Assembly: GCA_041650695.1 (NCBI GenBank)
Contig: JBAZKS010000008.1
Location: forward strand, 6,080-70,079
Source of the DNA: Elusimicrobiota bacterium
GTDB lineage: Bacteria; Elusimicrobiota; Elusimicrobia; UBA1565
Length of the DNA: 64,000 nucleotides
Reading direction: 5' to 3'
Shown here: in pieces, positions 12,230-25,116 of the stretch
Numbering within the stretch: the stretch's first letter is position 1
Layout of the letters: each line of letters opens with the position of its first letter
Position numbers and translations under genes: made by a program
Notes under the pieces: generated by a model
What the model saw: only the letters and a program-made list of their open reading frames with translations
Databases searched by the model: none
Told to the model about the DNA's origin: nothing

Positions 12230-14287
12230 TCAGGAAGGGATGATCCGCGTGGTGACGAAGATGAGCAGCTCCACCCGGTTGCGGGTCGTCGACTTCTTCT
12301 TGAACAGCCATCCCAGCAGCGGGATGTCGCCGAAGAAGGGGACTTTTGAGATCGAATCGCTGACCGAGTCCGTGATGAGCCCGCCGATGACCACGGTGCC
12401 GCCGTCCTGCACCACCACGGTGGTCTCGGCCGAGCGGCTGTCCGTCTGCCTGGCCCCGGTGGCGCTCGCCGCCGTGTTGGGCGAGGCCTGCTCCACCTTT
12501 GGCTTGATCTCCAGGGTGATGCGGCCGTCCGCGTTGATGGTCGGCTTGACGTCCAGGGTGATTCCCGTCTTCTGGAAGGACTGCTTGGTCGCGGTCGTGA
12601 CCGACCCGCCTCCGGCCGGCGTGGTCTCGGTCGTGGTGAAGGGGATGCTGGTCTCGATCTTGATCAGGGCCTGCTTCCCGTTCACCGTCGATATCTTCGG
12701 GTCCGAGAGCACCTTGGCCTTGCCCTCGCTGGCCGCCGCGGTCAGGGTGGCGGAGAGGAAGTAGTTGTTCGTGACGCGCCCGAACGTGAACGCCCCGAAG
12801 ATGTTGCTCGCCGGCAGGTTCACGCCCGTCCCGCGGCCGACGCCCCCGGTCCCGGCGGTGGCATCGGCGTTCTGGTCCAGAGGCTTCACCAGGGCGGTAG
12901 TCAGGGGGTGCGAGGCCGTCCCGAACATATTGGAGCCCGTCTGCGTGCCGATCTTCGAGTTCTCCATCCCCAGATAATCCCACTGGACGCCGAAGTCCAC
13001 GCCCTTGCTGAGCACGACCTCCACGAGCTTGGCCTCGATCATGACCTGCTGAGGCCGGATGTCGATCTCCGAGATCAGCCTCTCGATGGCGTCGATGCCG
13101 TCGAGCGTATCGGTGATGATCAAGGAGTTCGTGTTCTCGTCGGTGACGATGCTGGGAGTGCGCTTCTGCGCGGTCACGACCGCGTCCACGGCGGTCTTCA
13201 CGTCCAGCGCTTTCGCATACTTCAGCCGGACGATGCGCGTCTGATTGACGGCGACCCCCCGCTCCTTGGTCAGCGTCGACGGAGTCATGACGCGCAGGAT
13301 GTTCTCCCCCACCTGGCTGGCCACGAGCCCCTGCATGGAGAGGATCGTCATGAACGCCTCGTTATAGGGGACGTCCTTGAGGTGCAGGCTCAGGTTCCCG
13401 TTCACGTCGGACCCGTAGACGATGTTGATCTTGGCCTTGAGCCCCATGAGCTTGAGCATGTCCCGGATGTCCATGTCGTCGTATTCGAGGGTCACCGGGT
13501 CCGAGGGAAGCGCGGCCAGGATGTCCCGGCGCAGCTTCTTCTTCCCCGCTGGAGCCGCCAAGGGCTTGACCGACGCGGCGGCGGCCGGGGCGTCCGCGTC
13601 CTCCGGCCGGGCGTCGCCCGCCTCGGCGATGGCGCGAAGCTCGGAGGACACTTCCGTGGACAACGACGTCGGGACCTGGGCGACGGGGAGCGCGGGCTTC
13701 GCCGCGGCCCCGTTGGGAGCGTCTTTGAGCGCCGCGGGGGCGGCCGGCTTGGGGGCCGCCGGCTTGGGCGCCTGCGGCGCGGCAGCGACGCGGCCCTGCG
13801 CCTCGTCGGGAGAGGCGTTGGGCGCATGGGCGGCCGGCTCCACTAGAGCCGCATCAACGGGGGAGGCCCGGGGGGAGTCTCCGGAAGCGCCCGTCAGCGA
13901 GACCAGGAGCTTGTTGTCCTCCCACTTGGCGGTGTAGGCCGCCTCCTTGAGCAGATCGAGGACGATGCGGGTGATCATGCTGGGGGTGCGCTGATACTGC
14001 CCGGAACGCACGCCCTTCAACAACGAGCCCTTCCCGCCCTGCTGGCGCTCCGAGGCCGTGAACTCCGTATCAAGGAATTCGATGACAAGGCGCGGGGGAT
14101 TGGAGGTCACGAAAGTGTTGAACTTGACGCGAGAGGTGAGATGCACCGCGACCTCATCCGCCCCGACCTCGACGCCCTCGAGCAGGGCGCTCTCCGCAGC
14201 CCAGAGGAGCGCGGGCCCCTCCTGGCACAGGAGAAGGGCTGCCGCGGTCAGCAGGGCCAAGCAGCGTCTCAAGGGTTGGTTCGTCAT
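12230..14287 (-). CDS. pilQ: Type IV pilus secretin PilQ
   Basis: Signal peptide, AMIN domain (VAVHLTSRVKFNTFVTSNPPRLVIEFLDTEF), an Ala/Pro-rich linker, N0/secretin domains and the C-terminal secretin signature VPFFGDIPLLGWLFKKKSTTRNRVELLIFVTTRII. The start at ATG 14287 (MTNQ...) has a GAGGA SD 5 nt upstream; the track start at 14326 would overlap pilP. Confidence 0.85.
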   Translation of the reverse strand: MTNQPLRRCLALLTAAALLLCQEGPALLWAAESALLEGVEVGADEVAVHLTSRVKFNTFVTSNPPRLVIEFLDTEFTASERQQGGKGSLLKGVRSGQYQRTPSMITRIVLDLLKEAAYTAKWEDNKLLVSLTGASGDSPRASPVDAALVEPAAHAPNASPDEAQGRVAAAPQAPKPAAPKPAAPAALKDAPNGAAAKPALPVAQVPTSLSTEVSSELRAIAEAGDARPEDADAPAAAASVKPLAAPAGKKKLRRDILAALPSDPVTLEYDDMDIRDMLKLMGLKAKINIVYGSDVNGNLSLHLKDVPYNEAFMTILSMQGLVASQVGENILRVMTPSTLTKERGVAVNQTRIVRLKYAKALDVKTAVDAVVTAQKRTPSIVTDENTNSLIITDTLDGIDAIERLISEIDIRPQQVMIEAKLVEVVLSKGVDFGVQWDYLGMENSKIGTQTGSNMFGTASHPLTTALVKPLDQNADATAGTGGVGRGTGVNLPASNIFGAFTFGRVTNNYFLSATLTAAASEGKAKVLSDPKISTVNGKQALIKIETSIPFTTTETTPAGGGSVTTATKQSFQKTGITLDVKPTINADGRITLEIKPKVEQASPNTAASATGARQTDSRSAETTVVVQDGGTVVIGGLITDSVSDSISKVPFFGDIPLLGWLFKKKSTTRNRVELLIFVTTRIIPS

Positions 14288-14303
14288 AGGTGTCCTCATT
14301 GGG

Positions 14304-14834
14304 TCAAGTCTTGCCTCCGGAGCCACCGGGGCTGCTGGATCCTTCCTTTTCCTCGTCCTCTTCTTCCTTGTCCTCGCCCATGCGCAGGATCGCCTTCTCC
14401 CCGGACGCCTCCAGGATGACGGTCATCTGGATGGGATTCACGCGGCCTTTCACCCCGCGGATCGCATGACCCTGGTAGTCATAGAGCCGCCCGCTGCGGA
14501 AATAGTAGCCCGTGCGGCTCTCGGCGTGGTGGAGCAGCGCGTAGGACGACGCCTTGTCCTTCAGGATGCCCTTGAGCGACATCCCCTTGATGAGCGCGGC
14601 CTTGTCCGTTTCCTCGGAATTGGGATCGAACGCCTTCTCCTCGTCCGAGACCGCGACCCCCCCGCTCCCGGTCAGCGAGAGGAACGGGCTCTTGACCTTC
14701 TTGGCGTTGAAGAGGTCCTCGATCTTCGCCGGCTTCGGCGGCGTGGAAGGCTGCGCGGCGGGCGCCGCGCCGCTCTGCGCCAACGCCCGCCCCCCGACGA
14801 CGAAAAGGAACATGAGCACGAACACGGTTCTCAT
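14304..14834 (-). CDS. pilP: Pilus assembly protein PilP-like (small secreted protein in the pilMNOPQ operon)
   Basis: 176 aa with a signal peptide, at the correct operon position between pilO and pilQ. A GGAG SD lies 8 nt before the ATG. Confidence 0.55.
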   Translation of the reverse strand: MRTVFVLMFLFVVGGRALAQSGAAPAAQPSTPPKPAKIEDLFNAKKVKSPFLSLTGSGGVAVSDEEKAFDPNSEETDKAALIKGMSLKGILKDKASSYALLHHAESRTGYYFRSGRLYDYQGHAIRGVKGRVNPIQMTVILEASGEKAILRMGEDKEEEDEEKEGSSSPGGSGGKT

Positions 14835-14838
14835 CGGC

Positions 14839-15393
14839 TCACTCCAGATACTGGTACGCGACCAGTTTGAGCACCATATACATCTTCCCCTCTCCGTCCG
14901 GGGCCCCGAAATTGATGTCGCGGGCGCAGAAGAGCCGCTTCTCCAGCGCGAGCGCGGCCAGGAACTTCCCCAGGTCGTGGTACGAGGTCTGGATCTTGAG
15001 CTCGTACTTCACCTCGGCGTATCCGGCCGCCTTGGTCTCCCCCGTGTAGGAGATCCCCGAAAGCTTGATGTTGTGCTTCTTCGTCAGCGCGCTGACCGTG
15101 TCGATGACTCCGGGCAGATCCTTTTCCTTCGGCAGGGACTCGATAAGCACCTTCAGCTCCGCCTCGAGCGTCACCAGCGCCTTCTGGATCTTCTCGTAGT
15201 CGGCCTGGGCCTTCTTGGCGACCTTGATGCTCTCCTGGACCTGCGCGAACTCGGTCTTGAGCTCCGTGATCCGCTTCGAGGTGGGCATCCAGAAATACCG
15301 CACGTACGCGAAGCCGCCGCCGCCGAGGAAAAGCACGGCGAGCACCAGCGCCTGCTGCTGTTCCTTCGTCAGCTTGATGTTCATCTTCGCCAT
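14839..15393 (-). CDS. pilO: Type IV pilus assembly protein PilO
   Basis: 184 aa with a single N-terminal TM (ALVLAVLFLGGGGFAYV), a coiled coil and a PilO-like periplasmic domain. Operon position supports the call. Confidence 0.7.
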   Translation of the reverse strand: MAKMNIKLTKEQQQALVLAVLFLGGGGFAYVRYFWMPTSKRITELKTEFAQVQESIKVAKKAQADYEKIQKALVTLEAELKVLIESLPKEKDLPGVIDTVSALTKKHNIKLSGISYTGETKAAGYAEVKYELKIQTSYHDLGKFLAALALEKRLFCARDINFGAPDGEGKMYMVLKLVAYQYLE

Positions 15394-15394
15394 C

Positions 15395-15967
15395 TTACGG
15401 TGCCGCCGTGTACGTCATGTTGATCGTGAATTTGGTCGCCGTCTCGCCGATCGTCAGGATCTTGGTCTGTCCGGCGCTGAAGCGCCCGCCGCCGGTCAGC
15501 TGGACCGGTTGGGTCGAGGCGTTCACCCCCCGGAGCCATTGCGCCGCGTTTTCCGGCTTCAGGACCGCCGCGTCGGCATCCACCTGCAGCGTGGTGTTGG
15601 TCTTATTGGTCGTCTTCAGGGTCTCGAGCCACATCCCCTTGGGCATGCTCTCGCTGATATCCGTCATGAATCGGGGGTAGACCAGCCGCGAACTCAGAAG
15701 GCCCTCGATGACCTTGCGCCGCGCGACGACCTTGTCGCGCCTCGCGGTGGCCTCCGCCAGCATGCTCTTGTACTTCTCCAGCGCGGCGAGCTCCGTCTTG
15801 GCCGTGGCCACCTCGGCCTCCAGGACCACCTTGCGGTGGTGGTGCCAATAGGAGACCCCCGCGAACAAGAGGGCGGCGAAGACGCCGATCACGCCGATCT
15901 GCCCGAGGCGCTGCTTCTGCAGCTCCCGGTCCAGGATGTCCTGCGGTACCAGATTGACTCGGATCAT
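15395..15967 (-). CDS. pilN: Type IV pilus assembly protein PilN
   Basis: 190 aa. The N-terminus MIRVNLVPQD...LQKQRL is typical of PilN, followed by a single TM. ATGA overlap with pilM. Confidence 0.7.
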   Translation of the reverse strand: MIRVNLVPQDILDRELQKQRLGQIGVIGVFAALLFAGVSYWHHHRKVVLEAEVATAKTELAALEKYKSMLAEATARRDKVVARRKVIEGLLSSRLVYPRFMTDISESMPKGMWLETLKTTNKTNTTLQVDADAAVLKPENAAQWLRGVNASTQPVQLTGGGRFSAGQTKILTIGETATKFTINMTYTAAP

Positions 15968-17140
15968 TCCCAGTCCCTATTGCGCCGCAGCGCCAGCCCC
16001 ACCGCGATGCCCATGGCCGGCAGGAGTTCGGCCGGCAGGTCCGCGGGCGGATCGCCCAGGAAAGTGAAGGGATCGAGCACGGTGACCGGGACCTTGAGTT
16101 CCCCGGTCAGGAACCGGGCCAGGTTCTTCATCTTCGCGGACCCTCCCGAAAGCACGATGCGCCCGATGGACCGCTCCGGACCCTGAGAGAGGAAAAAGTC
16201 CACGGAGCGGTGCAGCTCGGCGACGAGGTCCTTGAGCACGTTCGCGACGGCCTGGGAGACCCCGAGCGCGTCCCGGTTGCCCTCCTGCAGGGCCTTCTCC
16301 TTCTCCTCGGGATCGATCATGAGGCCGTACGCCTTCTTGACCTCCTCGGCCTTGGCGTACTCGTACTGTAAAGCCTTCATCACGGCTTTGGTGAACGTGC
16401 TCCCGGAGATGAAGATGTCCCTAACGACCCGCGTGACCCCAGCCTCGATGATGGAGAGGTTCGTCACGGTATGGCCGATGTTCAGGTACAGCGCGGAGCC
16501 GACGCGCTCCTGCGGGTCGGTGGTGCCCTCGAACACGTTCTCCATCGCGAAAGAGTCGACGTCGATGATGGCGGGCTTGAGCCCCGCGGCTTCGAGGATC
16601 TCCACGCGCGTCTGGATCAGATCCTTCTTGGCCGCCACCAGCACGGTCTCCATCTTGCGCTGGCCCTCCTCCATCATCTCCGCGAGGATATGGAAGCTGA
16701 GCTGGACCTCGTTGATGTCGAACGGGATGAACGGCTCGGCCTCCGTGGAAAGCGTGGCCCGCAGTTCCTGTTTGGTCAGGAGCGGGAACTTGACGTAGCG
16801 GACGATCACGGCGTTGCCGGAGACCGCGGTCGCGGCGTTCTTGACCTGCACCCCTTTCTGGATGAGGAACGCCTTCAAGGCGTTGACCGTGGCCTGCTTG
16901 CGCTCCTCGGGAGAAGCCTCGGGAGCCGCCTCGATCGGGATATGTCCCCACATCTTGAGCTTGTTCTTGCCGCCCTCGGCCTTGATCAGGACGATCTTCA
17001 CGGCGTACGTGCCGATATCGACGCCCAGGATGTCCTTGGGGCCGCCGAAGAAAGCCCCGACCTTATCCTTCAGGCTCTTGATGTCGACGGCTTTCAGCTT
17101 TTCCTTCAGGTCCGGCATATCCCTCCGAGAACCCGCCATT
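15964..17140 (-). CDS. pilM: Type IV pilus assembly ATPase-fold protein PilM
   Basis: Actin-like ATPase fold (ILGVDIGTYAVKIVLIK ... GGSAKMKNLARFL). The track ORF begins at 17226. The start is ambiguous: 17140 (MAGSRRDMPD...) or 17118 (MPDLK, GGAGGG SD only 2 nt upstream). Confidence 0.8.
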
Positions 17141-17298
17141 AAAAAGCGCCGGCACCCGCTTTTGCGGGGCGACTCGGCGCGCACAGGTAGCTGGCCCGGG
17201 CCATCCATACGCCCAGCACAGCCCACCCAAACCTCGACACAGGTCTACGACTATGCATTTGTAACAGGATTCTACGAATTTGTCAAGGGCTTTTTTTA

Positions 17299-17304
17299 TA
17301 TAAT
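17299..17304 (+). promoter_or_regulatory. TATAAT hexamer in an AT-rich divergent intergenic region (pilM <-> inositol operon)
   Basis: tttttttatataatgctg lies about 35 nt upstream of the 17338 ATG. The only obvious -35-like TTGTCA sits at a 13-nt spacer, so this is non-ideal. Confidence 0.2.
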
Positions 17305-17337
17305 GCTGAAGATACTCCGAAGCCGATCCCCCGAATC

Positions 17338-18756
17338 ATGAGCTTTGAGAAGCTGGCCGCGCCCACGAAAGCCCTTCTGTTCGATTTCGGCGGCACTCTG
17401 GATTCCGACGGTGCGGCGTGGATCGACCGCTTTATCCCCCTCTATATGGAAGGCGGGCTGTCCGCCGAACGGGAGACCCTCTGCCGGGCGTTCTACGACT
17501 CGGATGACAACCTTCCCCGGCGCTTCGCGCTCGCCGGACTCGGCCTGGAGGAAACGGTCCGCCTGCAGGTCGGGTGCGTGGCCAAGACCCTTTCCATGGA
17601 CGAACGGGCGGCCGACCGCGTGGCGGAGGCCTTCATCTCGGACTCCCGACGGCACCTCCGCCGCAACCGCCCCCTGCTCGAACGGCTGGCCGGGCGCTTC
17701 CGTCTTGGGATCGTCTCCAATTTCTACGGCAACCTCGATTCCGTGCTCGCCTCGGAGGGCTACTCCGAACTCTTCGCCGTAGTCTCGGACTCCGAGAAAG
17801 TAGGGGCCGCGAAGCCCGAGGCGCGCATCTTCCAGCACGCCCTCTCGCGCCTGGGGGCCCGGCCCGAAGAGACCTGGATGGTCGGAGACTCCGTCAAACG
17901 CGACATGCGGGGAGCCGAGGCCCTCGGCATGCCCCACGCCTGGGTGGCTGGAACGCGCCCCGAGACGGACCGCTGCTGCGCGGATGCCCCGGTGCTCCGT
18001 TCACTGATGGATATCGAGCCCCTGCTTTTAGGGAAGACGTGGGTCACGTGTGCCGGCATCATCGCCGCCGGGGAAGGCTCGCGCCTGCGCTCCTCGCATC
18101 CTAGTCTGCCGAAGCCGCTGGTGCCGGTGCGGGGCAAGCCCCTCGCGCACTGGGTGGCCCAAGGCCTGGCTTCGGCGGGAATCCGCTCCTGCACGATGAT
18201 ACTGAACAGTTCGGGACAGGCCGTGCGCGAATCCCTCTCCGGGGCTTTCCCCGATATCGCTTGGGATTTCATCGTCCGGGATACCGGCTCGTCCTGGGAG
18301 AGTTTCCGCATCGTGGCCCAGGCTCTGGCCGCGCGCAGCGAGGCGTTCCTGATGAGCACCGTGGACGCTCTCGTCCCCCCCGAGGACATCGCGCGCTTCA
18401 GCCGGGAGGCATTCCTTCTTATAGGAAGGGATCGCCCTTGCGCGGCCCTGGGCTTGACCGGCTTCGTGGACGACGAGAAGCCCCTTTGGGCGGACATGGA
18501 TCCGGCCGGCCGGATCACCGCCCTGGGACCCATGGCTCGCCGAAAGGAGACCGTGACCTCCGGGCTCTACGCATTGACGAGGGAGGCGGCGCTCTCCATG
18601 CCGCCGGTCTCGGCCCACTCCAAGCTGCGCGAATACTGGACGGCGCTGGTCCGGAACGGACGGCCGGTCCGCGGCGTCCTCCTTTCCAAAACCGTCGACG
18701 TGGACCGGCCGGAGGATGTGGCCGTCGCCGAAAAACAGACCCGCTCCTGGAGATGA
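17338..18756 (+). CDS. Fusion protein: N-terminal HAD-like hydrolase plus C-terminal MobA-like nucleotidyltransferase (inositol-1-phosphate cytidylyltransferase-like)
   Basis: HAD motif I LLFDFGGTL and motif III/IV MVGDSVKRDMRGAEALG are in residues 1-225. Residues ~232-472 carry the NTase glycine loop CAGIIAAGEGSRLRSSHPSLPKPLVPV. Confidence 0.7.
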   Translation: MSFEKLAAPTKALLFDFGGTLDSDGAAWIDRFIPLYMEGGLSAERETLCRAFYDSDDNLPRRFALAGLGLEETVRLQVGCVAKTLSMDERAADRVAEAFISDSRRHLRRNRPLLERLAGRFRLGIVSNFYGNLDSVLASEGYSELFAVVSDSEKVGAAKPEARIFQHALSRLGARPEETWMVGDSVKRDMRGAEALGMPHAWVAGTRPETDRCCADAPVLRSLMDIEPLLLGKTWVTCAGIIAAGEGSRLRSSHPSLPKPLVPVRGKPLAHWVAQGLASAGIRSCTMILNSSGQAVRESLSGAFPDIAWDFIVRDTGSSWESFRIVAQALAARSEAFLMSTVDALVPPEDIARFSREAFLLIGRDRPCAALGLTGFVDDEKPLWADMDPAGRITALGPMARRKETVTSGLYALTREAALSMPPVSAHSKLREYWTALVRNGRPVRGVLLSKTVDVDRPEDVAVAEKQTRSWR

Positions 18757-18757
18757 T

Positions 18758-19606
18758 ATGGCTCGATGCCTTGGCGTCTTCCGTGAAGTCACGAACTCCC
18801 CGAACCGCGAGACGGACGACGCCCTGATCCTGAAGGCGGTCCTGGAGCGCCTGGGATCTTTGGGGGTCGAGACGCAGGCCGTCAATCCCGAGGAGCTCGA
18901 CTCCATGGACCTGGCCGGGTGGGACCTGATCCTGCCCATGTGCGAAGCCTATCCGCGCATCAAGCGTCTGGAGTCCCTCTCCCGGTCCACGGACGCCCTC
19001 TGGGTCAACCCTCCGTCGAGCGTCCTGAGCTGCTATCGGATACAAATGCTCGACGCCTTCCGCTCGGCTAAAGAGATCCGCTTCCCGCCGACCGAGGTCC
19101 GCAAGGTGGACGAGGGGCCGGGCGACCCGCCCGTCCCATCGGACGGCGGGTGGTGGATCAAGCGCGGGGACGTGCACAACACCTGCGACCACGACGTCGT
19201 GCGCGCGCGCCGCTGGACCGACGTCGCCGGCATCCTGCAGGATTTCGCCAAGCGCGAGATCATGCATTGGCTCGTCCAGCCCCATGTCGAGGGGGACCTC
19301 GTCAAGTTCTACGGCGTGGGCCCGGAGCATTGGTTCACCTGGTTCTATCACGACCCGGTCCGCGCGAAACGCCTTCCCTTCGACGTGGATGTCCTCGCGG
19401 GACAGGCCGCCGCGGGAGCCCGGAGATTGGCCCTCGAGGTGTTCGGCGGCGACGCGATCATCGGGCCCGACCGCGTCGTCACCCTGCTCGACGTAAACTC
19501 CTGGCCCAGTTTTGCCCTGGTCCGCGGCGAAGCCGCGGTCCAGATATCCTGGCACCTGCAAAGAAGGGTGAAAACCCTTCGCGGGGCCGCTCTCCGGAGA
19601 TCCTAA
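18758..19606 (+). CDS. ATP-grasp fold protein (possible ligase/kinase; family uncertain)
   Basis: WWIKRGDVHNTCDHDVVRA (nucleotide-binding strand), LVQPHVEGDLVKFYGVG and C-terminal GGDAIIGPDRVVTLLDVNSWPSF match the ATP-grasp topology. The start is MARCLGV at 18758, 2 nt after the upstream stop. Confidence 0.45.
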   Translation: MARCLGVFREVTNSPNRETDDALILKAVLERLGSLGVETQAVNPEELDSMDLAGWDLILPMCEAYPRIKRLESLSRSTDALWVNPPSSVLSCYRIQMLDAFRSAKEIRFPPTEVRKVDEGPGDPPVPSDGGWWIKRGDVHNTCDHDVVRARRWTDVAGILQDFAKREIMHWLVQPHVEGDLVKFYGVGPEHWFTWFYHDPVRAKRLPFDVDVLAGQAAAGARRLALEVFGGDAIIGPDRVVTLLDVNSWPSFALVRGEAAVQISWHLQRRVKTLRGAALRRS

Positions 19607-20955
19607 TGAAAAACACGCTGCAGAAGACCACTGAACCCTACACCGCCGGCCCGAAGTCCCTGGAGCTATTCGAGGAAGAGCAGCGCCACATGACGCCGGG
19701 GCTCCAGCAGATCGCGACCTTCTCCAAGATCGTCCTGGAGCGCGGGCGCGGCGCCAAATTCTGGGACGTCGATGGACGCGAATACATCGATTTCGTCGCC
19801 GGGGTCTGCGTGGCGGCCATCGGGCACGGGCATCCGGAGTACGCGCGCGCCATCTCGGAGCAGGTCTCGAAGATCTCGGTCGGCAGCTTCACGACCCGCA
19901 ACCGGGTGGAGTTCGCCAAGGCCCTGGGCGAGGTCACCCCGAAGGGGGTCGACCGGCTCCAGCTCTACTCCAGCGGCGCCGAAGCCGTCGAGGCCGCGCT
20001 GCGCCTGGCCAAGAGCCACACGAAGAAATACGAGTTCATCGCCTTCTGGGGCGGCTTCCACGGCAAGACCATGGGCGTTCTGGGCATGCTGGGCGACACC
20101 TTCAAGAAGGACCTGGGACCCCTCACGCCCGGCACCTACCTCGCGCCCTTCCCCAACCCCTACCGCTGCCCCTTCGGCACGAAGGGGGAGCACGACTGCG
20201 CGAGCCACTGCCTGGATTTCCTCCGGACCATGATCCAGCGCTCCACGACCGGCGCCCTGGCCGGCATCCTCGTCGAGCCGGTGCAGGGGACGGCCGGGAA
20301 CGTCATCCCGGCGCCGGGCTTCCTGGCGGGCTTGCGGGACATCGCCCACGAGCACGGAGCCCTGCTCATCGCGGACGAGATGATCACCGGCTTCGGCCGC
20401 ACGGGCCGGTGGTTCGGCTGCAACCACGATGACGTGATCCCGGACATCATGACTCTCGGCAAGGGCCTGGGCGGCGGCTTCCCGGTGGCGGGGCTCGTGG
20501 CCCCCGCGCACATCGCCTCGGCCAAGCCCTTCGCGAACCCCTCCGGCTCCTCCTCGAGCTACGGAGGCAACCCCCTGGCCTCGGCCGCCTGCAACGCCTC
20601 GCTCAAGATCCTCAAGAACGAGAAGCTCGTGCAGAACAGCCGCGACCTCGGCGCCCATATGCTCGAGCGCCTGTCGAAGCTCAAGGACCGGTTCCCGTTC
20701 GTGGGAGACGTCCGCGGACGGGGCCTCATGATCGGCGTGGAGCTGGTCAAAGACCGCGCCACGAAAGAGCCCATGCCCCGCGAGCACTGCCGCGTCCTCT
20801 TCGACGAGGCCCTGCGCCGGGGGCTCATCACGATGGCCTATTCGCCGGTCATCCGCATCAACCCCCCGCTGAACATCACGCGCGAGGAGGCCGACCGCGG
20901 GATGGACATCCTCGAGGAGAGCCTCGCCGCGGCGCAGGAACGCTGGAAGCTCTGA
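19606..20955 (+). CDS. Class-III (fold type I) PLP-dependent aminotransferase
   Basis: 449 aa. It carries class-III hallmarks: ...FVAGVCVAAIGHGHPEY..., LIADEMITGFGRTGRWFG..., TLGKGLGGGFPV (Schiff-base Lys region). The start MKNTLQK overlaps the previous stop (TAATG). Confidence 0.85.
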   Translation: MKNTLQKTTEPYTAGPKSLELFEEEQRHMTPGLQQIATFSKIVLERGRGAKFWDVDGREYIDFVAGVCVAAIGHGHPEYARAISEQVSKISVGSFTTRNRVEFAKALGEVTPKGVDRLQLYSSGAEAVEAALRLAKSHTKKYEFIAFWGGFHGKTMGVLGMLGDTFKKDLGPLTPGTYLAPFPNPYRCPFGTKGEHDCASHCLDFLRTMIQRSTTGALAGILVEPVQGTAGNVIPAPGFLAGLRDIAHEHGALLIADEMITGFGRTGRWFGCNHDDVIPDIMTLGKGLGGGFPVAGLVAPAHIASAKPFANPSGSSSSYGGNPLASAACNASLKILKNEKLVQNSRDLGAHMLERLSKLKDRFPFVGDVRGRGLMIGVELVKDRATKEPMPREHCRVLFDEALRRGLITMAYSPVIRINPPLNITREEADRGMDILEESLAAAQERWKL

Positions 20956-21971
20956 TGCCCAAAGGCGCGATCATCGGATTCGGAGAGGTCTGCGAGCGGG
21001 CCCACATCCCGGCTCTCAAGGCGGACCGCGACTATGAGATCGTCGCGGTCTGCGACAGCTGCATCGAGCGGCGCAGCTTGGCCGCCCGCCTCCTGCCGGC
21101 GGCCAAGCTCTTCCCGAGCGCGGAGGCGATGACCTCGCATTTCTCGAAACTCAGCTCGGTCATCGACTTCGTGGACATCGCCGCGCCGCCCCACCTGCAC
21201 GCCGAAAGCTCTCTGCTCGCGCTCAAGCACGGCCTTCATGTCCTGTGCGAAAAGCCCCTCACTCTGAGCCTGAAGGAATTCGAGACGATCCGCCGCGAGG
21301 CGTCCCGGCGGCGCCGAGTGGTTTTCCCCGTGCACAACTGGAAGCACGCGCCCCTGCTCGCCAAGCTGCGCGAGCTGCTCCGGGAGCGCGCCGTGGGCGG
21401 CGTCACCCACATCGAGTGGCACGTCCTGCGCAGTCAGCCCTCGGTCACGGCCCACGCCAAGGCGAACTGGCGCACGGACCGCAGGCTCTCCGGCGGCGGC
21501 ATACTCATGGACCACGGCTGGCACGCCCTCTACCTGCTCCAGTGGCTGGTCGGCAAGAAGCCGTTGTCGGCCCACGGGGTGCTCAAGTGCTCCGGCGATA
21601 CGGACCGGGAGGCCACCTGCCTGATCGAGTTCCCCGGGTCCACCGCCCTGATGCACCTCACCTGGAACGCCCCCGGCCGCGGGCATTGGGGGGTGGTCTA
21701 CGGGAACGAAGGCCGCGTCGAGCTGCAGGACGACCGTCTGCTGGTGTACCACAGGGCCTCCGTCCCGCACACGTACTCCTTCCAGCAGCCGCTCTCGCAC
21801 GGCTCGGCCCATCCGGAGTGGTTCCGCGGGACGCTCCTGGACTTCAAGGCGGCCCTTGCGGATCCCGCCGCGGCGACGGCGGCTCTCGACGAAGCGGGAC
21901 GCTGCATCGCCCTTATCGAAGGCCTCTACGGCCGAAGCGCAGCCTTGCGGGAGGAAGCCGCCCTACCGTGA
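20955..21971 (+). CDS. Gfo/Idh/MocA-family NAD(P)-dependent oxidoreductase (inositol/sugar dehydrogenase-like)
   Basis: Rossmann N-terminus MPKGAIIGFGEVCERAHIPAL, the EKP motif LCEKPLTL, and a C-terminal alpha/beta domain. TGATG overlap with the aminotransferase. Confidence 0.8.
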   Translation: MPKGAIIGFGEVCERAHIPALKADRDYEIVAVCDSCIERRSLAARLLPAAKLFPSAEAMTSHFSKLSSVIDFVDIAAPPHLHAESSLLALKHGLHVLCEKPLTLSLKEFETIRREASRRRRVVFPVHNWKHAPLLAKLRELLRERAVGGVTHIEWHVLRSQPSVTAHAKANWRTDRRLSGGGILMDHGWHALYLLQWLVGKKPLSAHGVLKCSGDTDREATCLIEFPGSTALMHLTWNAPGRGHWGVVYGNEGRVELQDDRLLVYHRASVPHTYSFQQPLSHGSAHPEWFRGTLLDFKAALADPAAATAALDEAGRCIALIEGLYGRSAALREEAALP

Positions 21972-23719
21972 CCCGACGCCTGAGCGCCATCGTCGCCTTC
22001 GACAGCCCGGACCTCGAAGAGCTCCGCCGCCGGGACGAGCGCGCGGCCCTGGCGTCCCTGCGGCGCCGCGACGAAGTCCTGCTCGCCGGGGTGACCGGTC
22101 ACGGGGGCTCGGTCCGGCACTCCATCGGAGACGTCTCGTTCGCGTCCTTCGAGAGCGCCGTCAGCGCGGTCGAGTGCGCGCTCTGGGTCCAGCAGCGCCT
22201 GGGGGATGAAGCCCTTCCGCTGCGGGCCTGCGTCCAGATCGGGGACCTGCTCGCCAACGACCAGACGGGCTTCTCAGCCGCCTCCCGGCTCCTTCACCTC
22301 GTTCCGACCGGGAAGTCCTGCGTCACCCGCGAGGTCCGGTCCGTCGTCGAGGGCAAGGTCCGCTGCGGCTTCAGGGACCTGGGCTCGAGCCTCCTCGAGC
22401 TTTCGGAGCCGGATGACGGAGCGCCCGCGCGCGTCGGACATGGGCCCATCCGGCTGGTCGTCCCGCCGGAGCCGCCGAAACAGAAACAACCGCCGGAAGA
22501 GCCGAAAAAGGAAGAACCGCCCAGGAAACAGATGCCCCCGCCTCCCGCGGCGGCCGGGCCGCTGCAAGCCATCCTCTGGGTGGACCATCCGAACCTGATG
22601 CTCGAGCGGGTGGGCGGGATCCCGATCATCGAGCGGCAGATCATCACCCTCTCCAAGGTCGGGTTCCGCCGGATCTGGGTCTCCACGGTCAAGCCCAAGG
22701 GGAAGGGCATCGAACAGCTGCGCATCCCCGCCGGGATCGAGCTCCACTGGGTGGAGCCGACCGGCGGCGATGACGAGGTCCGCAGCCGCATCCCCGCGTG
22801 CCAGCCGCCCTACATCACCGTTTCCGCGGATTATTTCTTCCGCCCCCGGGTCCTGGGCCAGATCCTCTCCAAGAAGCACGAGGCCCCCACCGCCTACCAG
22901 GACATCTCCGGCAAGGGCGTGATCCAGGTCGTTCCGTACCGCCAGCAAGTGGTCCAACGCCACGCCAAGCTGCCCCTCCCGGACGAGGACTATGTCCTTC
23001 TGAAGACGGATGCCGCCCGGGGACCGGCGGTGCCCTGGCTCCTGCGCGACATGGTCAAGCCCCAGGACAGCTTCATGGCCAGACATTTCGACCGGCGCAT
23101 CTCCATGGCCGTGACGCGCCGCCTCGCCGAGACCTGGGTCAGCCCGAATCACATGACGGTCTTCAGCACGGCCATCGGGCTGGCGGGGGCCTCCCTGTTC
23201 GCTTCCGGGACATACCTCCATACCGTGGCCGCGGCGCTCATCGTCTGGCTCCACACGGTCCTGGACGGCTGCGACGGGGAGCTCGCGCGCCTGCGCTTCC
23301 AATCGAGCCGCTTGGGCGGCATCCTCGACTTCTGGGGAGACAATCTGGTCCATGCCGTCCTATTCGTCTCCATGGGCGTGGGTCTCGGGCGCCCGGTCTT
23401 CATCCTCCTGGGGCTGGTGGCCGCGGCCAGCGCTTTGGCCTGCGCCGCGCTCATCTACGCGCATTCCGCGCAGCGAGCCGAACGAGAGAAGGAGGGCCCC
23501 CTGTTCCGAGGGCTCGAGGACCTGGGAAAATCCTGGGCCGCGAAGATCGAGCACATCCTGTCCCAAAGGGACTTCATCTATCTGCTCGTCCTCCTGGCCT
23601 TGACCGGGCGGACCGACGTCTTCCTCTGGGCCGCGGGCATCGGGACTCCCCTTTTCCTCATTGTTTTTCTGCTGTTGCGTCCAAAAAGCTACAATGTCGA
23701 ATCTACCGGAGGAACCTGA
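21968..23719 (+). CDS. Tri-domain protein: nucleotidyl-cyclase-like N-domain, degenerate NTP-transferase-like middle domain, C-terminal CDP-alcohol phosphatidyltransferase
   Basis: GTG start overlaps the upstream stop (GTGA). The N-terminal ~115 aa (AIVAFDSPD...GGSVRHSIGDVSFASFESAVSAVECALWVQQ) resemble the class-III cyclase fold, followed by a Pro/Lys-rich linker. The middle domain ILWVDHPNLMLERVGGIPIIERQIITL is NTase-like but lacks the GxGxR loop. The C-terminus has the exact CDP-OH_P_transf motif DGCDGELARLRFQSSRLGGILDFWGDNLVH (DGx2ARx8Gx3Dx3D) and 4-6 TM helices. Confidence 0.7.
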   Translation: MTRRLSAIVAFDSPDLEELRRRDERAALASLRRRDEVLLAGVTGHGGSVRHSIGDVSFASFESAVSAVECALWVQQRLGDEALPLRACVQIGDLLANDQTGFSAASRLLHLVPTGKSCVTREVRSVVEGKVRCGFRDLGSSLLELSEPDDGAPARVGHGPIRLVVPPEPPKQKQPPEEPKKEEPPRKQMPPPPAAAGPLQAILWVDHPNLMLERVGGIPIIERQIITLSKVGFRRIWVSTVKPKGKGIEQLRIPAGIELHWVEPTGGDDEVRSRIPACQPPYITVSADYFFRPRVLGQILSKKHEAPTAYQDISGKGVIQVVPYRQQVVQRHAKLPLPDEDYVLLKTDAARGPAVPWLLRDMVKPQDSFMARHFDRRISMAVTRRLAETWVSPNHMTVFSTAIGLAGASLFASGTYLHTVAAALIVWLHTVLDGCDGELARLRFQSSRLGGILDFWGDNLVHAVLFVSMGVGLGRPVFILLGLVAAASALACAALIYAHSAQRAEREKEGPLFRGLEDLGKSWAAKIEHILSQRDFIYLLVLLALTGRTDVFLWAAGIGTPLFLIVFLLLRPKSYNVESTGGT

Positions 23720-23721
23720 AT

Positions 23722-25116
23722 ATGAGCCCTCGCCCGTTCAAAATCGAACCCTGCCGCGGAAAACTCGGCGTCCTGCTCCCCGGCATGGGCGCCATAACCA
23801 GCACCGTCATCGCGGGCATCGAGCTCCATAAGAAGGGCCTCGGCCACCTCGCGGGCTCCGTGACGCAGCTGCAGCGCATCCGCCTGGGCAAGCGCTACGA
23901 GAACCGCCGTCCCCTCATACGGGAGTTCGTGCCCCTGCAGAAGGTCGAGGACCTGGTCTTCGGCGGCTGGGACATCTTCCCGGACGACGTGTACCGCGCC
24001 GCGCTCAAGGCGGGCGTACTGCCCGAGGAGCGTCTCCGGCCGGTGGCTCAGACCCTTTCCTCCATCCGCCCCATGCCCGGGGTCTTTGACCAGGGCTACG
24101 TGAAGAACCTCCAAGGCACGCACGTAAAGACGGGCAAGAGCAAGATGCACATGGCCGAGCAGCTCATGCGCGACATCGAGACGTTCAAGAAAGAGAACGG
24201 CCTCTCGCGCGTGGTCATGGTCTGGTGCGGCTCCACCGAGATCCTCCCCGAGCGCTCCAGGGTCCACGAGGACCTCGCATCGCTCGAGCGGGGCCTCAAG
24301 GAGAGCGACCCGGCCATCCCGCCCTCCATGATTTACGCCTATGCCGCGGTCAAAATGGGCCTCCCATACGCGAACGGGGCCCCGAACCTGTCGGGCGACG
24401 TCCCGGCCATGCTCGAACTCGCGAACGCGACCGGCTCCCCGATCATCGGCAAGGACTTCAAGACCGGCCAGACCCTGATGAAGACCATCATCTCCCCCGG
24501 GCTGCACTCGCGCATGCTGGGCTTGAACGGCTGGTACTCCACCAACATCCTCGGCAACCGGGACGGGGAAGTGCTCGCGGACCCGGGCTCCTTCAAGACC
24601 AAGGAGACGAGCAAGATGTCCGTTCTCGACACGATCCTGGAGCCGGAGCTGTATCCGGACCTCTACGGGAAAGTCGTCCATAAGGTGCGCATCGACTATT
24701 ACCCGCCGCGCGGCGACGCCAAGGAAGGGTGGGACAACATCGACATCTTCGGCTGGATGGACATGCCCATGCAGATCAAGATCAACTTCCTCTGCAGGGA
24801 CTCCATCCTCGCCGCCCCCATCGTGCTGGACCTCGCGCTCTTCATGGACCTGGCAAAGCGGTCTGGCATGCGGGGCATCCAGGAGTGGCTCTCGTTCTAC
24901 TTCAAATCCCCGCAGTGCCGCGAAGACCTCCTGCCCGAGCACAACCTGTTCATCCAGCACCTCAAGCTCAAGAACACCCTGCGCATCCTCATGGGCGAGG
25001 AGGTCCTGGACCACTCGGGCTTAGACTACTACGACCCCGAACGGGGAGTCCCGATACCGGCCCCCGCCGCGGCCTCGGAGAAGAAGAAGGCCCGCGCGAA
25101 AGCCGGAAGCCGGTAG
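23722..25116 (+). CDS. ino1: myo-Inositol-1-phosphate synthase (MIPS/Ino1, bacterial-archaeal type)
   Basis: 465 aa. The N-terminus GVLLPGMGAITSTVIAGI (Rossmann), VVMVWCGSTE, NGAPNLSGD and SPGLHSRMLGLNGWYSTNILGNRDG are conserved MIPS blocks. A GGAGGA SD lies 9 nt before the ATG. Confidence 0.85.
   Translation: MSPRPFKIEPCRGKLGVLLPGMGAITSTVIAGIELHKKGLGHLAGSVTQLQRIRLGKRYENRRPLIREFVPLQKVEDLVFGGWDIFPDDVYRAALKAGVLPEERLRPVAQTLSSIRPMPGVFDQGYVKNLQGTHVKTGKSKMHMAEQLMRDIETFKKENGLSRVVMVWCGSTEILPERSRVHEDLASLERGLKESDPAIPPSMIYAYAAVKMGLPYANGAPNLSGDVPAMLELANATGSPIIGKDFKTGQTLMKTIISPGLHSRMLGLNGWYSTNILGNRDGEVLADPGSFKTKETSKMSVLDTILEPELYPDLYGKVVHKVRIDYYPPRGDAKEGWDNIDIFGWMDMPMQIKINFLCRDSILAAPIVLDLALFMDLAKRSGMRGIQEWLSFYFKSPQCREDLLPEHNLFIQHLKLKNTLRILMGEEVLDHSGLDYYDPERGVPIPAPAAASEKKKARAKAGSR

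What the first reader, a model, noticed from the sequence alone, without database searches (positions are those of the whole stretch)
17338..18756. HAD-like hydrolase fused to a MobA-like (IPCT-type) nucleotidyltransferase as first gene of the inositol operon
The HAD half has DxxGTL (LLFDFGGTL) rather than DxDGTL, so the second Asp of phosphatase-type HADs is missing. The C-terminal half has an intact AAGEGSRL loop. A phosphatase-like domain fused to a cytidylyltransferase would put the first step (CDP-alcohol formation) and a later dephosphorylation step on one polypeptide. In described DIP pathways these steps are separate proteins.
Basis: partly seen in the sequence, partly recalled or inferred. 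Interest (0 to 1): 0.5.

Follow-up and report, generated by a model that had tools for sequence, protein, structure and literature searches.

The report
HAD–cytidylyltransferase fusion in inositol head-group operon

Summary
Window 17338-18756 (+) is one intact 472-aa ORF. Residues 1-235 are a HAD-IA domain and residues 236-472 are a nucleotidyltransferase (NT) whose closest solved relatives are inositol-1-phosphate cytidylyltransferases.

HAD motif I is D16-F-G18-G19-T-L-D. Gly at the general-acid position (Asp+2) was present in about 200 homologues examined. The nucleophile Asp, the motif II Ser, the motif III Lys and the Mg-binding motif IV (GDSxxRD) are all kept. It is therefore neither a dehalogenase nor a dead domain.

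The fusion is a minority state. In 73 of 81 related loci, HAD and NT are separate adjacent genes, for example with an ATGA overlap. Other genomes carry NT–ATP-grasp or HAD–NT–ATP-grasp fusions.

The gene order HAD, NT, ITPK1-like ATP-grasp, class-III aminotransferase, cyclitol-type dehydrogenase, AF2299/DIPPS-type CDP-alcohol phosphotransferase, often followed by inositol-phosphate synthase (MIPS), holds across roughly ten phyla. It is related to the unconfirmed "alternative inositol lipid cluster" of Bacteroides vulgatus and Prevotella.

The DIP reading is only partly supported. The exact reaction of the HAD domain is unresolved. This is a new variant of a known kind, of moderate interest.

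The parts
17227..17337 (.). Divergent intergenic region between pilM (- strand) and the operon; AT-rich with a TATAAT-like hexamer
   Evidence: Sequence read. The consensus scan found no site meeting its criteria, so promoter status is inferred only.
17338..18756 (+). Fused HAD–NT gene, 472 aa, first gene of the operon
17338..18042 (+). HAD-IA domain with C1 four-helix cap (residues 1-235)
   Evidence: Pfam. AF2 model with pLDDT 95.4. Foldseek top hits are 3qnm, PH0459-derived proteins, YfnB, HDHD3 and NANP.
17374..17403 (+). HAD motif I, L13-L-F-D16-F-G18-G19-T20-L21-D22. D16 is the nucleophile; G18 occupies the Asp+2 general-acid position.
   Evidence: Invariant in alignments A1 and A3. G18 aligns to the second Asp of 3qnm 'FFDLDDT'. 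The motif is D[FY]G[GA]T[LI]D in 114 of 120 Bacteroidales homologues; the other six were not resolved by the pattern search.
17716..17733 (+). HAD motif II, extended: S127-N-F-Y-G-N132
   Evidence: present in 120/120 Bacteroidales homologues
17812..17817 (+). HAD motif III, K159-P160
   Evidence: Invariant
17884..17904 (+). HAD motif IV, G183-D184-S-V-K-R-D189 (Mg2+-binding acidic pair)
   Evidence: 119/120
18031..18057 (+). Fusion junction (residues 232-240, GKTWVTCAG). In relatives the HAD stop codon and the NT start codon lie here.
   Evidence: In L019 the separate genes overlap by ATGA.
18043..18756 (+). IPCT-like nucleotidyltransferase domain (residues 236-472), with P-loop A243-A-G-E-G-S-R-L250 (18064-18087) and K259
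   Evidence: Pfam. Profile hits 2xme at 1e-14 and 4mnd at 2.7e-14. AF2 model pLDDT 96.1. Foldseek 4jd0 TM 0.81/0.80.
18758..19606 (+). ATP-grasp protein, ITPK1-like (282 aa); fused to NT in other genomes
   Evidence: No Pfam hit. Profile best ATP-grasp hit is 1z2n, inositol 1,3,4-trisphosphate 5/6-kinase, at 8.4e-9. Fusions seen in P0113, P0066 and P0031.
19591..20955 (+). Class-III (PLP) aminotransferase
   Evidence: PF00202, 6e-107
20955..21971 (+). Gfo/Idh/MocA oxidoreductase (cyclitol or sugar dehydrogenase type)
   Evidence: Replaced by a BtrN-like radical SAM enzyme in L002.
21974..23719 (+). CDP-alcohol phosphotransferase of the AF2299/DIPPS type. It has a window-specific cyclase-homology extension (21974-22450), a degenerate NT-like domain, and the motif DGxxDGxxAR..GxxxDxxxD at about 23264-23341. 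The start codon is uncertain.
23722..25116 (+). myo-Inositol-1-phosphate synthase (MIPS)
   Evidence: PF07994, 7e-92; PF01658
25117..25650 (+). GNAT acetyltransferase (accessory; found in only a few relatives)

Best explanation
The gene is a natural fusion of two genes that are adjacent and translationally coupled in most relatives. They act in one pathway block.

The C-terminal domain is an IPCT-like cytidylyltransferase. It converts an inositol-type phosphate, derived from the MIPS product, plus CTP into a CDP-alcohol. The operon's AF2299/DIPPS-type CDP-alcohol phosphotransferase then uses this CDP-alcohol. That transferase's own N-terminal NT-like domain is degenerate.

The N-terminal domain is a Mg-dependent HAD enzyme with an aspartyl nucleophile and a non-canonical motif I, D-x-G-G-T-L-D. 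I infer that it removes the MIPS-derived phosphate from an inositol-phosphate intermediate or product. This could happen before activation, in a kinase -> HAD -> NT order like HldE/GmhB in heptose activation. It could also happen after transfer, in the manner of PIP or DIPP phosphatases.

Together with the ITPK1-like ATP-grasp, the dehydrogenase and the aminotransferase, the operon most likely makes an aminated inositol (inosamine-type) phospho-head group for a membrane lipid.

Shown here: the domain architecture, the motif conservation, the structural relatives, the synteny and the alternative fusions. Inferred: the substrates, the order of steps and the product.
For: The ORF is single and the architecture is conserved. 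The catalytic HAD residues D16, T20, S127, K159, D184 and D189 are invariant across fused and unfused homologues in roughly ten phyla, which indicates an active enzyme. The NT P-loop and Lys are invariant, and IPCTs are the best full-length solved relatives. The phosphotransferase has an intact CDP-alcohol motif. Its best PDB hits are AF2299 (9e-36) and IPCT/DIPPS (2e-23), and its N-terminal NT-like domain lacks GxGxR. The synteny HAD, NT, ATP-grasp, aminotransferase, dehydrogenase, phosphotransferase (often MIPS, often LPG_synthase_TM) holds in about 70 loci from Elusimicrobia, Thermoanaerobaculia, Methylomirabilota, Binatia, Verrucomicrobia, Gemmatimonadota, Limnocylindria and Proteobacteria. 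Rosetta-stone fusions link the soluble modules: HAD–NT here, NT–ATP-grasp (P0113, P0066) and HAD–NT–ATP-grasp (P0031/L009). The HAD, NT and ATP-grasp are orthologous to those in the Bacteroidales cluster that Heaver et al. 2022 proposed as an alternative inositol-lipid pathway. In L002 the dehydrogenase position is taken by a radical SAM enzyme whose best solved relative is BtrN, an aminocyclitol dehydrogenase. This supports a cyclitol oxidation followed by transamination. The ATP-grasp is closest to ITPK1. Lipid-related neighbours (LPG_synthase_TM, Mla, MMPL) appear.
Against: No biochemical data exist for any member; Heaver et al. state that the functions are unconfirmed. Loss of the Asp+2 general acid/base is atypical for a phosphomonoesterase acting on an alcohol leaving group, so the 'phosphatase' assignment is the weakest step. 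In a Bacteroidales variant (L041-type) HAD, NT and MIPS occur without an ATP-grasp or a phosphotransferase within 10 kb. Neither the kinase -> HAD -> NT order nor a post-transfer dephosphorylation explains this easily. The NT half scores far below the curated cut-offs of all specific NCBIfam equivalogs. The phosphotransferase is closer to solute-forming enzymes (AF2299, DIPPS) than to PIP synthases. The window itself has no LPG_synthase_TM gene. No amino-inositol lipid was found in the literature searched.
Confidence: 0.5

Rival explanations
1. DIP-type compatible-solute pathway. NT makes CDP-inositol, the phosphotransferase couples it to Ins-3-P to give DIPP, and the HAD domain dephosphorylates DIPP to di-myo-inositol phosphate.
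For: MIPS, an IPCT-like NT, a DIPPS/AF2299-like phosphotransferase and a phosphatase-like domain are together chemically sufficient for this route. The phosphotransferase's best solved relatives are AF2299 and IPCT/DIPPS, and the NT's are IPCTs.
Against: The aminotransferase, dehydrogenase and ATP-grasp are as conserved as HAD and NT and have no role in DIP synthesis. LPG_synthase_TM, Mla and MMPL neighbours point to lipids. The hosts are soil and groundwater MAGs, not hyperthermophiles. The NCBIfam IPCT/DIPPS model scores 69 bits against a cut-off of 580.
Confidence: 0.1
2. The HAD domain is an inorganic pyrophosphatase (or other phosphoanhydride or P–N hydrolase) that pulls the reversible NT reaction by destroying PPi. 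A substrate with a good leaving group would not need the Asp+2 general acid.
For: HAD and NT are always adjacent or fused, and HAD + NT + MIPS is the only invariant core across all three cluster variants, including the one without an ATP-grasp or a phosphotransferase. There is weak NCBIfam similarity to PpaX. From my own knowledge, HAD-type PPases exist (BT2127, PpaX), and LHPP, which has Ser at Asp+2, hydrolyses PPi and P–N bonds.
Against: BT2127 and PpaX keep Asp+2 as far as I recall; this was not checked here. Housekeeping PPase normally suffices. Heaver et al. report a phosphotransferase–HAD fusion in Prevotella veroralis, which links the HAD domain to the transferase step. An LPG_synthase_TM–HAD fragment fusion (P0181) links it to the membrane.
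Confidence: 0.15
3. The HAD domain is an inositol-phosphate phosphomutase or phosphotransferase, for example Ins-3-P to Ins-1-P. It would supply the regio-isomer that the NT activates, and the missing general base would disfavour hydrolysis of the phospho-aspartate.
For: This fits the minimal MIPS + HAD + NT module. It also fits the stereochemical need for a D-1-linked phosphoinositol, which is established knowledge on PI structure. All phosphoryl-transfer residues are retained except Asp+2.
Against: Known HAD mutases (beta-PGM, PMM) use Asp+2 as acid/base. Nothing in the data specifically indicates mutase chemistry.
Confidence: 0.1
4. The HAD half is a dehalogenase-type enzyme or a catalytically dead domain with only a structural or regulatory role.
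For: Asp+2 is absent. 'D-x-x-G-T-L' resembles motif I of dehalogenases, phosphonatase and P-type ATPases. Dehalogenases appear among the Foldseek hits.
Against: The Mg-binding motif IV GDSxxRD is invariant, whereas dehalogenases lack it (established knowledge). Dehalogenases rank well below phosphatase-type HADs, about 1e-11 against 1e-23. The nucleophile, Thr, Ser and Lys are under strict conservation across about ten phyla.
Confidence: 0.04
5. The fusion in this window is an assembly or sequencing artefact: a missed stop or frameshift between two genes.
For: Most relatives have two genes separated by a stop codon or an ATGA overlap, so one base error could fuse them.
Against: The same fused architecture is found in about 55 independent protein clusters. 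These include an 81%-identical relative seen on six contigs, and members of other phyla.
Confidence: 0.03

Closest known systems
CTP:L-myo-inositol-1-phosphate cytidylyltransferase (IPCT; A. fulgidus 2XME/4MND, T. maritima 4JD0)
   Same: The size and fold are the same, with the GxGxR...K P-loop. IPCTs are the best full-length profile hit (1e-14) and give the best reciprocal TM-score (0.81/0.80). The gene is associated with MIPS and a DIPPS-like transferase.
   Different: Identity is only about 18%. The protein scores far below the cut-offs of the specific NCBIfam equivalogs listed. It is fused to a HAD domain rather than to the transferase. The substrate is untested and may be a modified inositol phosphate.
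Bacteroides vulgatus / Prevotella 'alternative inositol lipid cluster' (NTP transferase BVU_RS13095, CDP-alcohol phosphatidyltransferase BVU_RS13105, HAD BVU_RS13115; Heaver et al. 2022, PMC9246714)
   Same: The HAD is orthologous (28% identity, E 8e-35, same D-x-G-[GA]-T-L-D and SNFYGN motifs). The NT (E 2e-23) and the ATP-grasp (E 6e-33) are also orthologous. There is a CDP-alcohol transferase and MIPS, and LPG_synthase_TM is present in relatives.
   Different: In the Bacteroidales cluster the NT is fused to the ATP-grasp and the HAD stands alone. That cluster has no aminotransferase or dehydrogenase, and its transferase lacks the NT-like N-terminal domain. Its functions are unconfirmed, and Heaver et al. 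did not describe the ATP-grasp domain or the aberrant motif I.
AF2299 and IPCT/DIPPS CDP-alcohol phosphotransferases of Archaeoglobus (4O6M, 4MND)
   Same: The operon's transferase shares their catalytic motif and an N-terminal cytidylyltransferase-like domain.
   Different: Here the active NT is a separate polypeptide joined to a HAD. The window's transferase carries an extra cyclase-homology domain.
HAD-IA proteins without Asp+2: REG-2-like/HDHD3 (3K1Z) and PH0459 (1X42)
   Same: They share the C1-cap HAD-IA fold. They are among the best sequence and structure hits, and TIGR02252 REG-2-like is the top NCBIfam hit. From my recollection of their sequences, motif I in both lacks Asp at +2.
   Different: Their functions are unknown. 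None has Gly-Gly at +2/+3 or the SNFYGN motif. The closest PDB hit, 3qnm, has a canonical DLDDT.
HldE/GmhB logic of ADP-heptose synthesis, and KdsC/KdsB, NANP/CMAS (established pathways, recalled from knowledge)
   Same: A HAD phosphatase removes a metabolic phosphate next to a nucleotidyltransferase step. HldE is a kinase–NT fusion with a separate HAD (GmhB), the same module shuffling as seen here.
   Different: Those HADs have canonical DxD motifs. The analogy is functional only and was not tested.
Aminocyclitol formation: inositol dehydrogenase plus aminotransferase, and BtrN
   Same: A Gfo/Idh/MocA dehydrogenase (weak iolG similarity) and an aminotransferase sit side by side. A BtrN-like radical SAM enzyme substitutes for the dehydrogenase in L002.
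   Different: The aminotransferase is class III, not the DegT/StsC type used in aminoglycoside pathways. No glycosyltransferases or antibiotic genes are present.

Membership tests
HAD superfamily, phosphatase type (subfamily IA, C1 cap) | Motif I nucleophile Asp followed by Thr/Val at +4 | tested here: met
   D16 and T20 are invariant.
HAD superfamily, phosphatase type (subfamily IA, C1 cap) | Asp at +2 (general acid/base, DxDxT) | tested here: not met
   G18 is invariant in alignments A1 and A3 and is present in all 81 related loci where motif I was read. It aligns to the second Asp of 3qnm.
HAD superfamily, phosphatase type (subfamily IA, C1 cap) | Motif II Ser/Thr, motif III Lys, motif IV acidic pair (GDxxxD) | tested here: met
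   S127, K159, D184 and D189 are invariant or nearly so.
HAD superfamily, phosphatase type (subfamily IA, C1 cap) | Rossmannoid core with a helical C1 cap inserted after motif I | tested here: met
   AF2 model pLDDT 95.4 with four cap helices at residues 28-118. All Foldseek top hits are C1-cap HADs.
HAD superfamily, phosphatase type (subfamily IA, C1 cap) | Phosphomonoesterase activity | not testable with these tools
   Needs an enzyme assay.
L-2-haloacid dehalogenase | Best similarity to dehalogenases, and a motif IV without the Mg-binding Asp pair | tested here: not met
   Dehalogenases score about 1e-11 to 1e-9 against 1e-23 for phosphatase-type HADs. TIGR01428 scores 39.6 bits against a cut-off of 125. 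GDSxxRD is present.
IPCT (CTP:inositol-1-phosphate cytidylyltransferase) | NT fold with a GxGxR P-loop and a conserved Lys | tested here: met
   A243-A-G-E-G-S-R249 and K259 are invariant. AF2 pLDDT is 96.1.
IPCT (CTP:inositol-1-phosphate cytidylyltransferase) | Closest characterised relatives are IPCTs | tested here: met
   2xme at 1e-14 and 4mnd at 2.7e-14 are the best full-length profile hits. 4jd0 has the highest TMq/TMt, 0.81/0.80. A single-sequence search is not discriminating.
IPCT (CTP:inositol-1-phosphate cytidylyltransferase) | Passes a curated family model | tested here: not met
   No NT-specific NCBIfam model reaches its cut-off.
IPCT (CTP:inositol-1-phosphate cytidylyltransferase) | CTP and L-myo-inositol-1-phosphate as substrates | not testable with these tools
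   Inferred only from the CDP-alcohol transferase and MIPS in the operon.
DIP biosynthetic system (MIPS + IPCT + DIPPS + phosphatase) | DIPPS-type transferase in the operon | tested here: inconclusive
   Best PDB hits are AF2299 (9e-36) then IPCT/DIPPS (2e-23). NCBIfam NF041135 scores 69 bits against a cut-off of 580.
DIP biosynthetic system (MIPS + IPCT + DIPPS + phosphatase) | Gene set limited to these functions | tested here: not met
   The ATP-grasp, aminotransferase and dehydrogenase are conserved with the cluster.
Bacteroidetes alternative inositol-lipid cluster (Heaver 2022) | NT, CDP-alcohol transferase and HAD next to MIPS, with orthology of the components | tested here: met
   The transferase similarity is weak: 22% identity in A5, and tblastn 34% over 82 aa.
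Bacteroidetes alternative inositol-lipid cluster (Heaver 2022) | Same gene content and same product (PI-DHC / PI) | tested here: not met
   The extra aminotransferase and dehydrogenase are conserved outside Bacteroidales. The product is untestable here.

The most novel reading that the evidence does not exclude
The operon headed by this gene encodes an undescribed pathway for an amino-inositol (inosamine-type) phospholipid head group, made by way of a CDP-activated cyclitol. It is present in hundreds of mostly uncultivated species across about ten bacterial phyla. It relies on a distinct HAD subfamily (D-x-G-[GA]-T-[LI]-D / SNFYGN) whose chemistry differs from canonical Asp+2-dependent phosphatases. 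The same HAD/NT/ATP-grasp module would be the missing biochemistry of the Bacteroides and Prevotella alternative inositol-lipid route.
Probability: 0.3. Interest if true: 0.7.

Novelty: new variant of a known kind. Interest (0 to 1): 0.5.

Why it matters
The NT/HAD/CDP-alcohol-transferase route to bacterial inositol lipids was proposed in 2022 for abundant gut Bacteroidetes. In the literature I could search, it has never been tested biochemically.

This gene and its relatives refine that proposal in three ways:
- Natural fusions tie the HAD, NT and a previously unremarked ITPK1-like ATP-grasp into one functional unit.
- The HAD belongs to a sharply defined subfamily that always lacks the general-acid Asp.
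- A larger version of the cluster, with a dehydrogenase and an aminotransferase, is widespread in soil and groundwater phyla.

Together these give concrete, cheap experiments (enzyme panels, operon expression plus lipidomics). They could settle how these bacteria make inositol lipids and might reveal a new amino-cyclitol lipid class.

Tried and rejected
- **Promoter and terminator scan** of 17100-17400 found nothing meeting its criteria.
- **Single-sequence PDB search with the NT half** matched only the P-loop region of many NTs and did not discriminate. The profile and structure searches were needed.
- **Foldseek of the HAD model** did not separate phosphatases from dehalogenases by fold. The argument therefore rests on motifs and profile scores.
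- **P. veroralis transferase–HAD fusion:** I tried to verify the fusion reported by Heaver et al. by searching with the Bacteroidales HAD and transferase. No such fusion appeared among the 120 best hits of either search. It is cited from the paper only.
- **Literature searches** for CDP-inositol after 2021, for inosamine with CDP-alcohol or head group, and for follow-ups on the B. vulgatus cluster found nothing beyond Heaver 2022 and reviews. The BT2127 primary paper was not retrieved.
- **D22 as a substitute general acid:** I considered this and did not adopt it. D22 probably corresponds to the conserved Asp about seven residues after the nucleophile in ordinary HAD-IA proteins (inference only).
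- **PdxA-like gene** next to HAD/NT in the L041-type loci is probably the housekeeping pdxA (82-87% identical across genera). I did not use it as pathway evidence.
- **Model coordinates** could not be inspected, so no active-site geometry was analysed.
Full report
**Observation**

Window 17338-18756 (+) is one uninterrupted ORF of 472 aa. Pfam places HAD models on residues 11-205. It places the MobA-like NTP_transf_3 and NTP_transferase models on residues 241-358, all above their curated cut-offs. The identical protein is recorded as "HAD-IA family hydrolase [Elusimicrobiota bacterium]". About 55 further protein clusters, at 36-81% identity, share the two-domain architecture. The gene is the first of seven tightly packed + strand genes and diverges from pilMNOPQ on the - strand:
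- 18758-19606: unknown protein
- 19591-20955: class-III aminotransferase
- 20955-21971: Gfo/Idh/MocA dehydrogenase
- about 21974-23719: CDP-alcohol phosphotransferase
- 23722-25116: MIPS
- 25117-25650: GNAT acetyltransferase

**HAD half**

In an alignment of 30 fused proteins, motif I is invariant as L-[FL]-D16-x-G18-G19-T20-L21-D22. Also invariant or nearly so are motif II S127 (extended to SNFYGN), motif III K159-P160 and motif IV G183-D184-S..D189. The same holds when stand-alone homologues are added and in 81 genomic loci from many phyla. In 120 Bacteroidales homologues, 114 read D-[YF]-G-[AG]-T-[LI]-D. The other six were not resolved by the pattern search. SNFYGN is present in 120/120 and GDS..D in 119/120.

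In the profile alignment to the closest solved structure, 3qnm (FFDLDDT), G18 falls exactly on the second Asp.

The domain is not dehalogenase-like. Phosphatase-type HAD-IA proteins (3qnm, PH0459, HDHD3, the Thermococcus phosphatase 4ygq, YfnB, NANP) score 1e-23 to 1e-15. Dehalogenases score 1e-11 or worse. The top NCBIfam hits are REG-2-like, YjjG/YfnB nucleotidase and CTE7, all below their cut-offs. Only the generic HAD-SF-IA-v1 model passes. The Mg-binding acidic motif IV is present, whereas dehalogenases lack it (established knowledge of the superfamily).

The AF2 model (pLDDT 95.4) has a Rossmannoid core and a four-helix C1 cap. Foldseek returns the same HAD-IA set. Strict conservation of the nucleophile, Thr, Ser, Lys and both acidic residues argues for an active Mg-dependent phosphoryl-transfer enzyme with unusual acid/base arrangements, not a pseudo-enzyme.

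**NT half**

The P-loop A243-A-G-x-G-x-R249 and K259 are invariant. A single-sequence PDB search matches only the P-loop of many NTs. The family profile, however, finds A. fulgidus IPCT (2xme, 1e-14) and IPCT/DIPPS (4mnd, 2.7e-14) as the best full-length hits, and T. maritima IPCT (4jd0) at 6e-11. The AF2 model (pLDDT 96.1) matches 4jd0 with the best TM-score in both directions (0.81/0.80, rmsd 3.0). The many RmlA hits are larger proteins, with TMt about 0.65. "IPCT-like" is therefore supported as the nearest known kind. Membership in a strict sense is not shown: no curated model passes and the substrates are untested.

**The fusion is a minority state**

A scan of one genome per GTDB species found at least 543 encoding stretches. 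In the 81 best loci that contain both halves, only 8 have a single ORF. These are several Elusimicrobia, a Thermoanaerobaculia MAG, the L002 contig, and the triple fusion L009. In the other 73 the HAD ORF ends in a stop and the NT starts a few bases away, usually in another frame.

I checked one case by eye. In L019 the genes overlap by ATGA. The window's junction (GKTWVTCAG, 18031-18057) lies exactly where the stop and start are in relatives. The fusion is real here, since an 81%-identical relative found on six contigs shares it. It is nevertheless a recurrent stop-loss fusion of translationally coupled neighbours, not a unique design.

**Other fusions**

The next gene (18758-19606) has no Pfam hit. 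It is homologous to the C-terminal half of 520-567-aa Bacteroidales proteins whose N-terminal half is homologous to this NT (E 6e-33 and 2e-23). P0066 (Elusimicrobia) is NT–ATP-grasp, and P0031/L009 is HAD–NT–ATP-grasp. A profile of this ATP-grasp finds Entamoeba inositol 1,3,4-trisphosphate 5/6-kinase (1z2n, 8.4e-9, whole domain) as the best ATP-grasp hit, ahead of RimK-type ligases. Two members also hit Pfam Ins134_P3_kin. The HAD, NT and an ITPK1-like ATP-grasp thus form one shuffled module.

**Operon context**

The order HAD, NT, ATP-grasp, aminotransferase, dehydrogenase, phosphotransferase is almost invariant in about 70 loci. These come from Elusimicrobia, Thermoanaerobaculia and other Acidobacteriota, Methylomirabilota/Rokubacteria, Binatia, Verrucomicrobiae, Gemmatimonadota, Limnocylindria, Syntrophobacteraceae and Alphaproteobacteria. 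MIPS is often adjacent, and an LPG_synthase_TM (MprF-flippase-type) gene is often adjacent. Mla, MMPL or hopanoid/isoprenoid genes are sometimes alongside.

The phosphotransferase has an intact DGxxDGxxAR..GxxxDxxxD motif. It resembles AF2299 (4o6m, 9e-36) and IPCT/DIPPS (4mnd, 2e-23). The match to 4mnd includes an N-terminal NT-like domain that lacks GxGxR and the Lys. The active NT is thus supplied in trans by the gene studied here.

In L002 the Gfo/Idh/MocA gene is replaced by a radical SAM/SPASM enzyme whose best solved relative is BtrN, the 2-deoxy-scyllo-inosamine dehydrogenase (1.3e-10). L086 has a B12-radical SAM at a similar place. This non-orthologous replacement, together with the adjacent aminotransferase, points to oxidation and transamination of a cyclitol hydroxyl, that is, to an inosamine-type ring (inference).

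**Relation to known systems**

Heaver et al. 2022 (PMC9246714) described an "alternate cluster" next to MIPS in B. vulgatus and Prevotella. It encodes an NTP transferase, a CDP-alcohol phosphatidyltransferase and a HAD hydrolase. They proposed a Kennedy-like route through CDP-inositol and stated that the functions are unconfirmed. They also reported a transferase–HAD fusion in P. veroralis.

A Bacteroidales locus that I retrieved (L004) shows that arrangement: CarboxypepD_reg, NT–ATP-grasp, transferase, LPG_synthase_TM, HAD, then MIPS further on. Its HAD is a homologue of our HAD half (28% identity, E 8e-35) with FDYGATLD. The present operon is therefore a relative of that cluster. It has a different fusion pattern and two additional conserved enzymes. 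I found no later paper that tests either version.

A third variant exists in rumen and gut Bacteroidales (L041-type): pdxA, HAD, NT and MIPS, without an ATP-grasp or a transferase within 10 kb. One such locus lies inside a capsule locus with LicD phosphotransferases. The invariant core across all variants is MIPS + HAD + NT.

**Mechanism**

- Most secure: the NT makes a CDP-alcohol that the CDP-alcohol phosphotransferase consumes, with MIPS supplying the carbon skeleton.
- Less secure: the identity of the activated alcohol, which could be inositol phosphate or an aminated derivative.
- Least secure: the HAD reaction.

I favour removal of the MIPS-derived phosphate from an inositol-phosphate intermediate or product. 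This could come after a second phosphorylation by the ATP-grasp and before activation, as in the HldE/GmhB logic. That order would make HAD and NT consecutive and would explain the kinase–NT fusions. It could also come after transfer, as in the PIP or DIPP phosphatase logic, which fits the reported transferase–HAD fusion.

Two facts count against both orders. The L041-type variant lacks the ATP-grasp, and the absent Asp+2 is odd for hydrolysis of an alcohol phosphate. A pyrophosphatase that pulls the NT reaction, or a mutase, fits the invariant HAD–NT pairing and is kept as a rival. The plain DIP pathway is chemically possible. It leaves three conserved enzymes and the lipid-type neighbours unexplained.

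**Verdict**

The gene is a new fusion variant within a known but uncharacterised kind of CDP-inositol pathway. The more interesting result is the conserved, phylogenetically broad operon and the sharply defined Asp+2-less HAD subfamily, both of which can be tested directly.

Noticed in passing
window 21974-22540: A cyclase-homology domain of about 160 aa (best PDB hit 3mr7, adenylate/guanylate cyclase, E 5e-9) and a Pro/Lys/Glu-rich linker lie in frame upstream of the CDP-alcohol phosphotransferase. Relatives (L003, L011, L014) lack this extension. The canonical metal-binding residues look degenerate. The true start codon of the transferase gene is uncertain.
   Followed up: partly
window ~22541-23130: The N-terminal domain of the phosphotransferase is a nucleotidyltransferase-like fold without the GxGxR P-loop or the Lys, as in AF2299. 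It aligns to the IPCT part of 4mnd.
   Followed up: partly
window 18758-19606: A 282-aa protein with no Pfam hit is an ITPK1-like ATP-grasp (profile hit to 1z2n). It is fused to the NT in Bacteroidales and in some Elusimicrobia. Heaver et al. did not mention this domain in their description of the B. vulgatus cluster.
   Followed up: partly
L002 13593-14675; L086 5234-6559: A radical SAM/SPASM enzyme (best PDB hit BtrN) replaces the Gfo/Idh/MocA dehydrogenase in one relative. A B12-binding radical SAM sits next to the transferase in another.
   Followed up: partly
L009 10001-12340 (P0031): A HAD–NT–ATP-grasp triple fusion of about 800 aa in an Elusimicrobia MAG.
   Followed up: yes
L041 4214-17185: In a Sodaliphilus MAG, the HAD, NT and MIPS genes lie inside a capsule-type locus with two LicD genes, a GT2, a hexapeptide transferase, a Wzz-like kinase and a UDP-glucose dehydrogenase. 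This suggests phospho-inositol decoration of a polysaccharide. No ATP-grasp or CDP-alcohol transferase lies within 10 kb.
   Followed up: partly
L001 1-8923; L087 2781-6806; L085 14067-16780: The cluster lies next to hopanoid/isoprenoid genes (SQS_PSY, PNP_UDP_1, B12-radical SAM, DXS, LytB) in a Thermoanaerobaculia MAG. In other genomes it lies next to MlaEFDC plus LPG_synthase_TM, or next to MMPL.
   Followed up: no
window 25117-25650: The GNAT acetyltransferase at the end of the operon is found in only a few Elusimicrobia relatives (L011, L014, L017, L038). It may N-acetylate the amine.
   Followed up: no
window 12230-17226 (- strand) and 25736-28369: The operon is flanked by pilQ/pilO/pilN/pilM genes (the fifth ORF, 14304-14834, was not tested) and by a BamA-like Omp85 gene. 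The same flanks occur in relative L003.
   Followed up: no
P0181: A 337-aa Bacteroidales protein fragment joins the end of an LPG_synthase_TM domain to the HAD (motif FDYGGTLD). It is a possible membrane-tethered form of the HAD.
   Followed up: no
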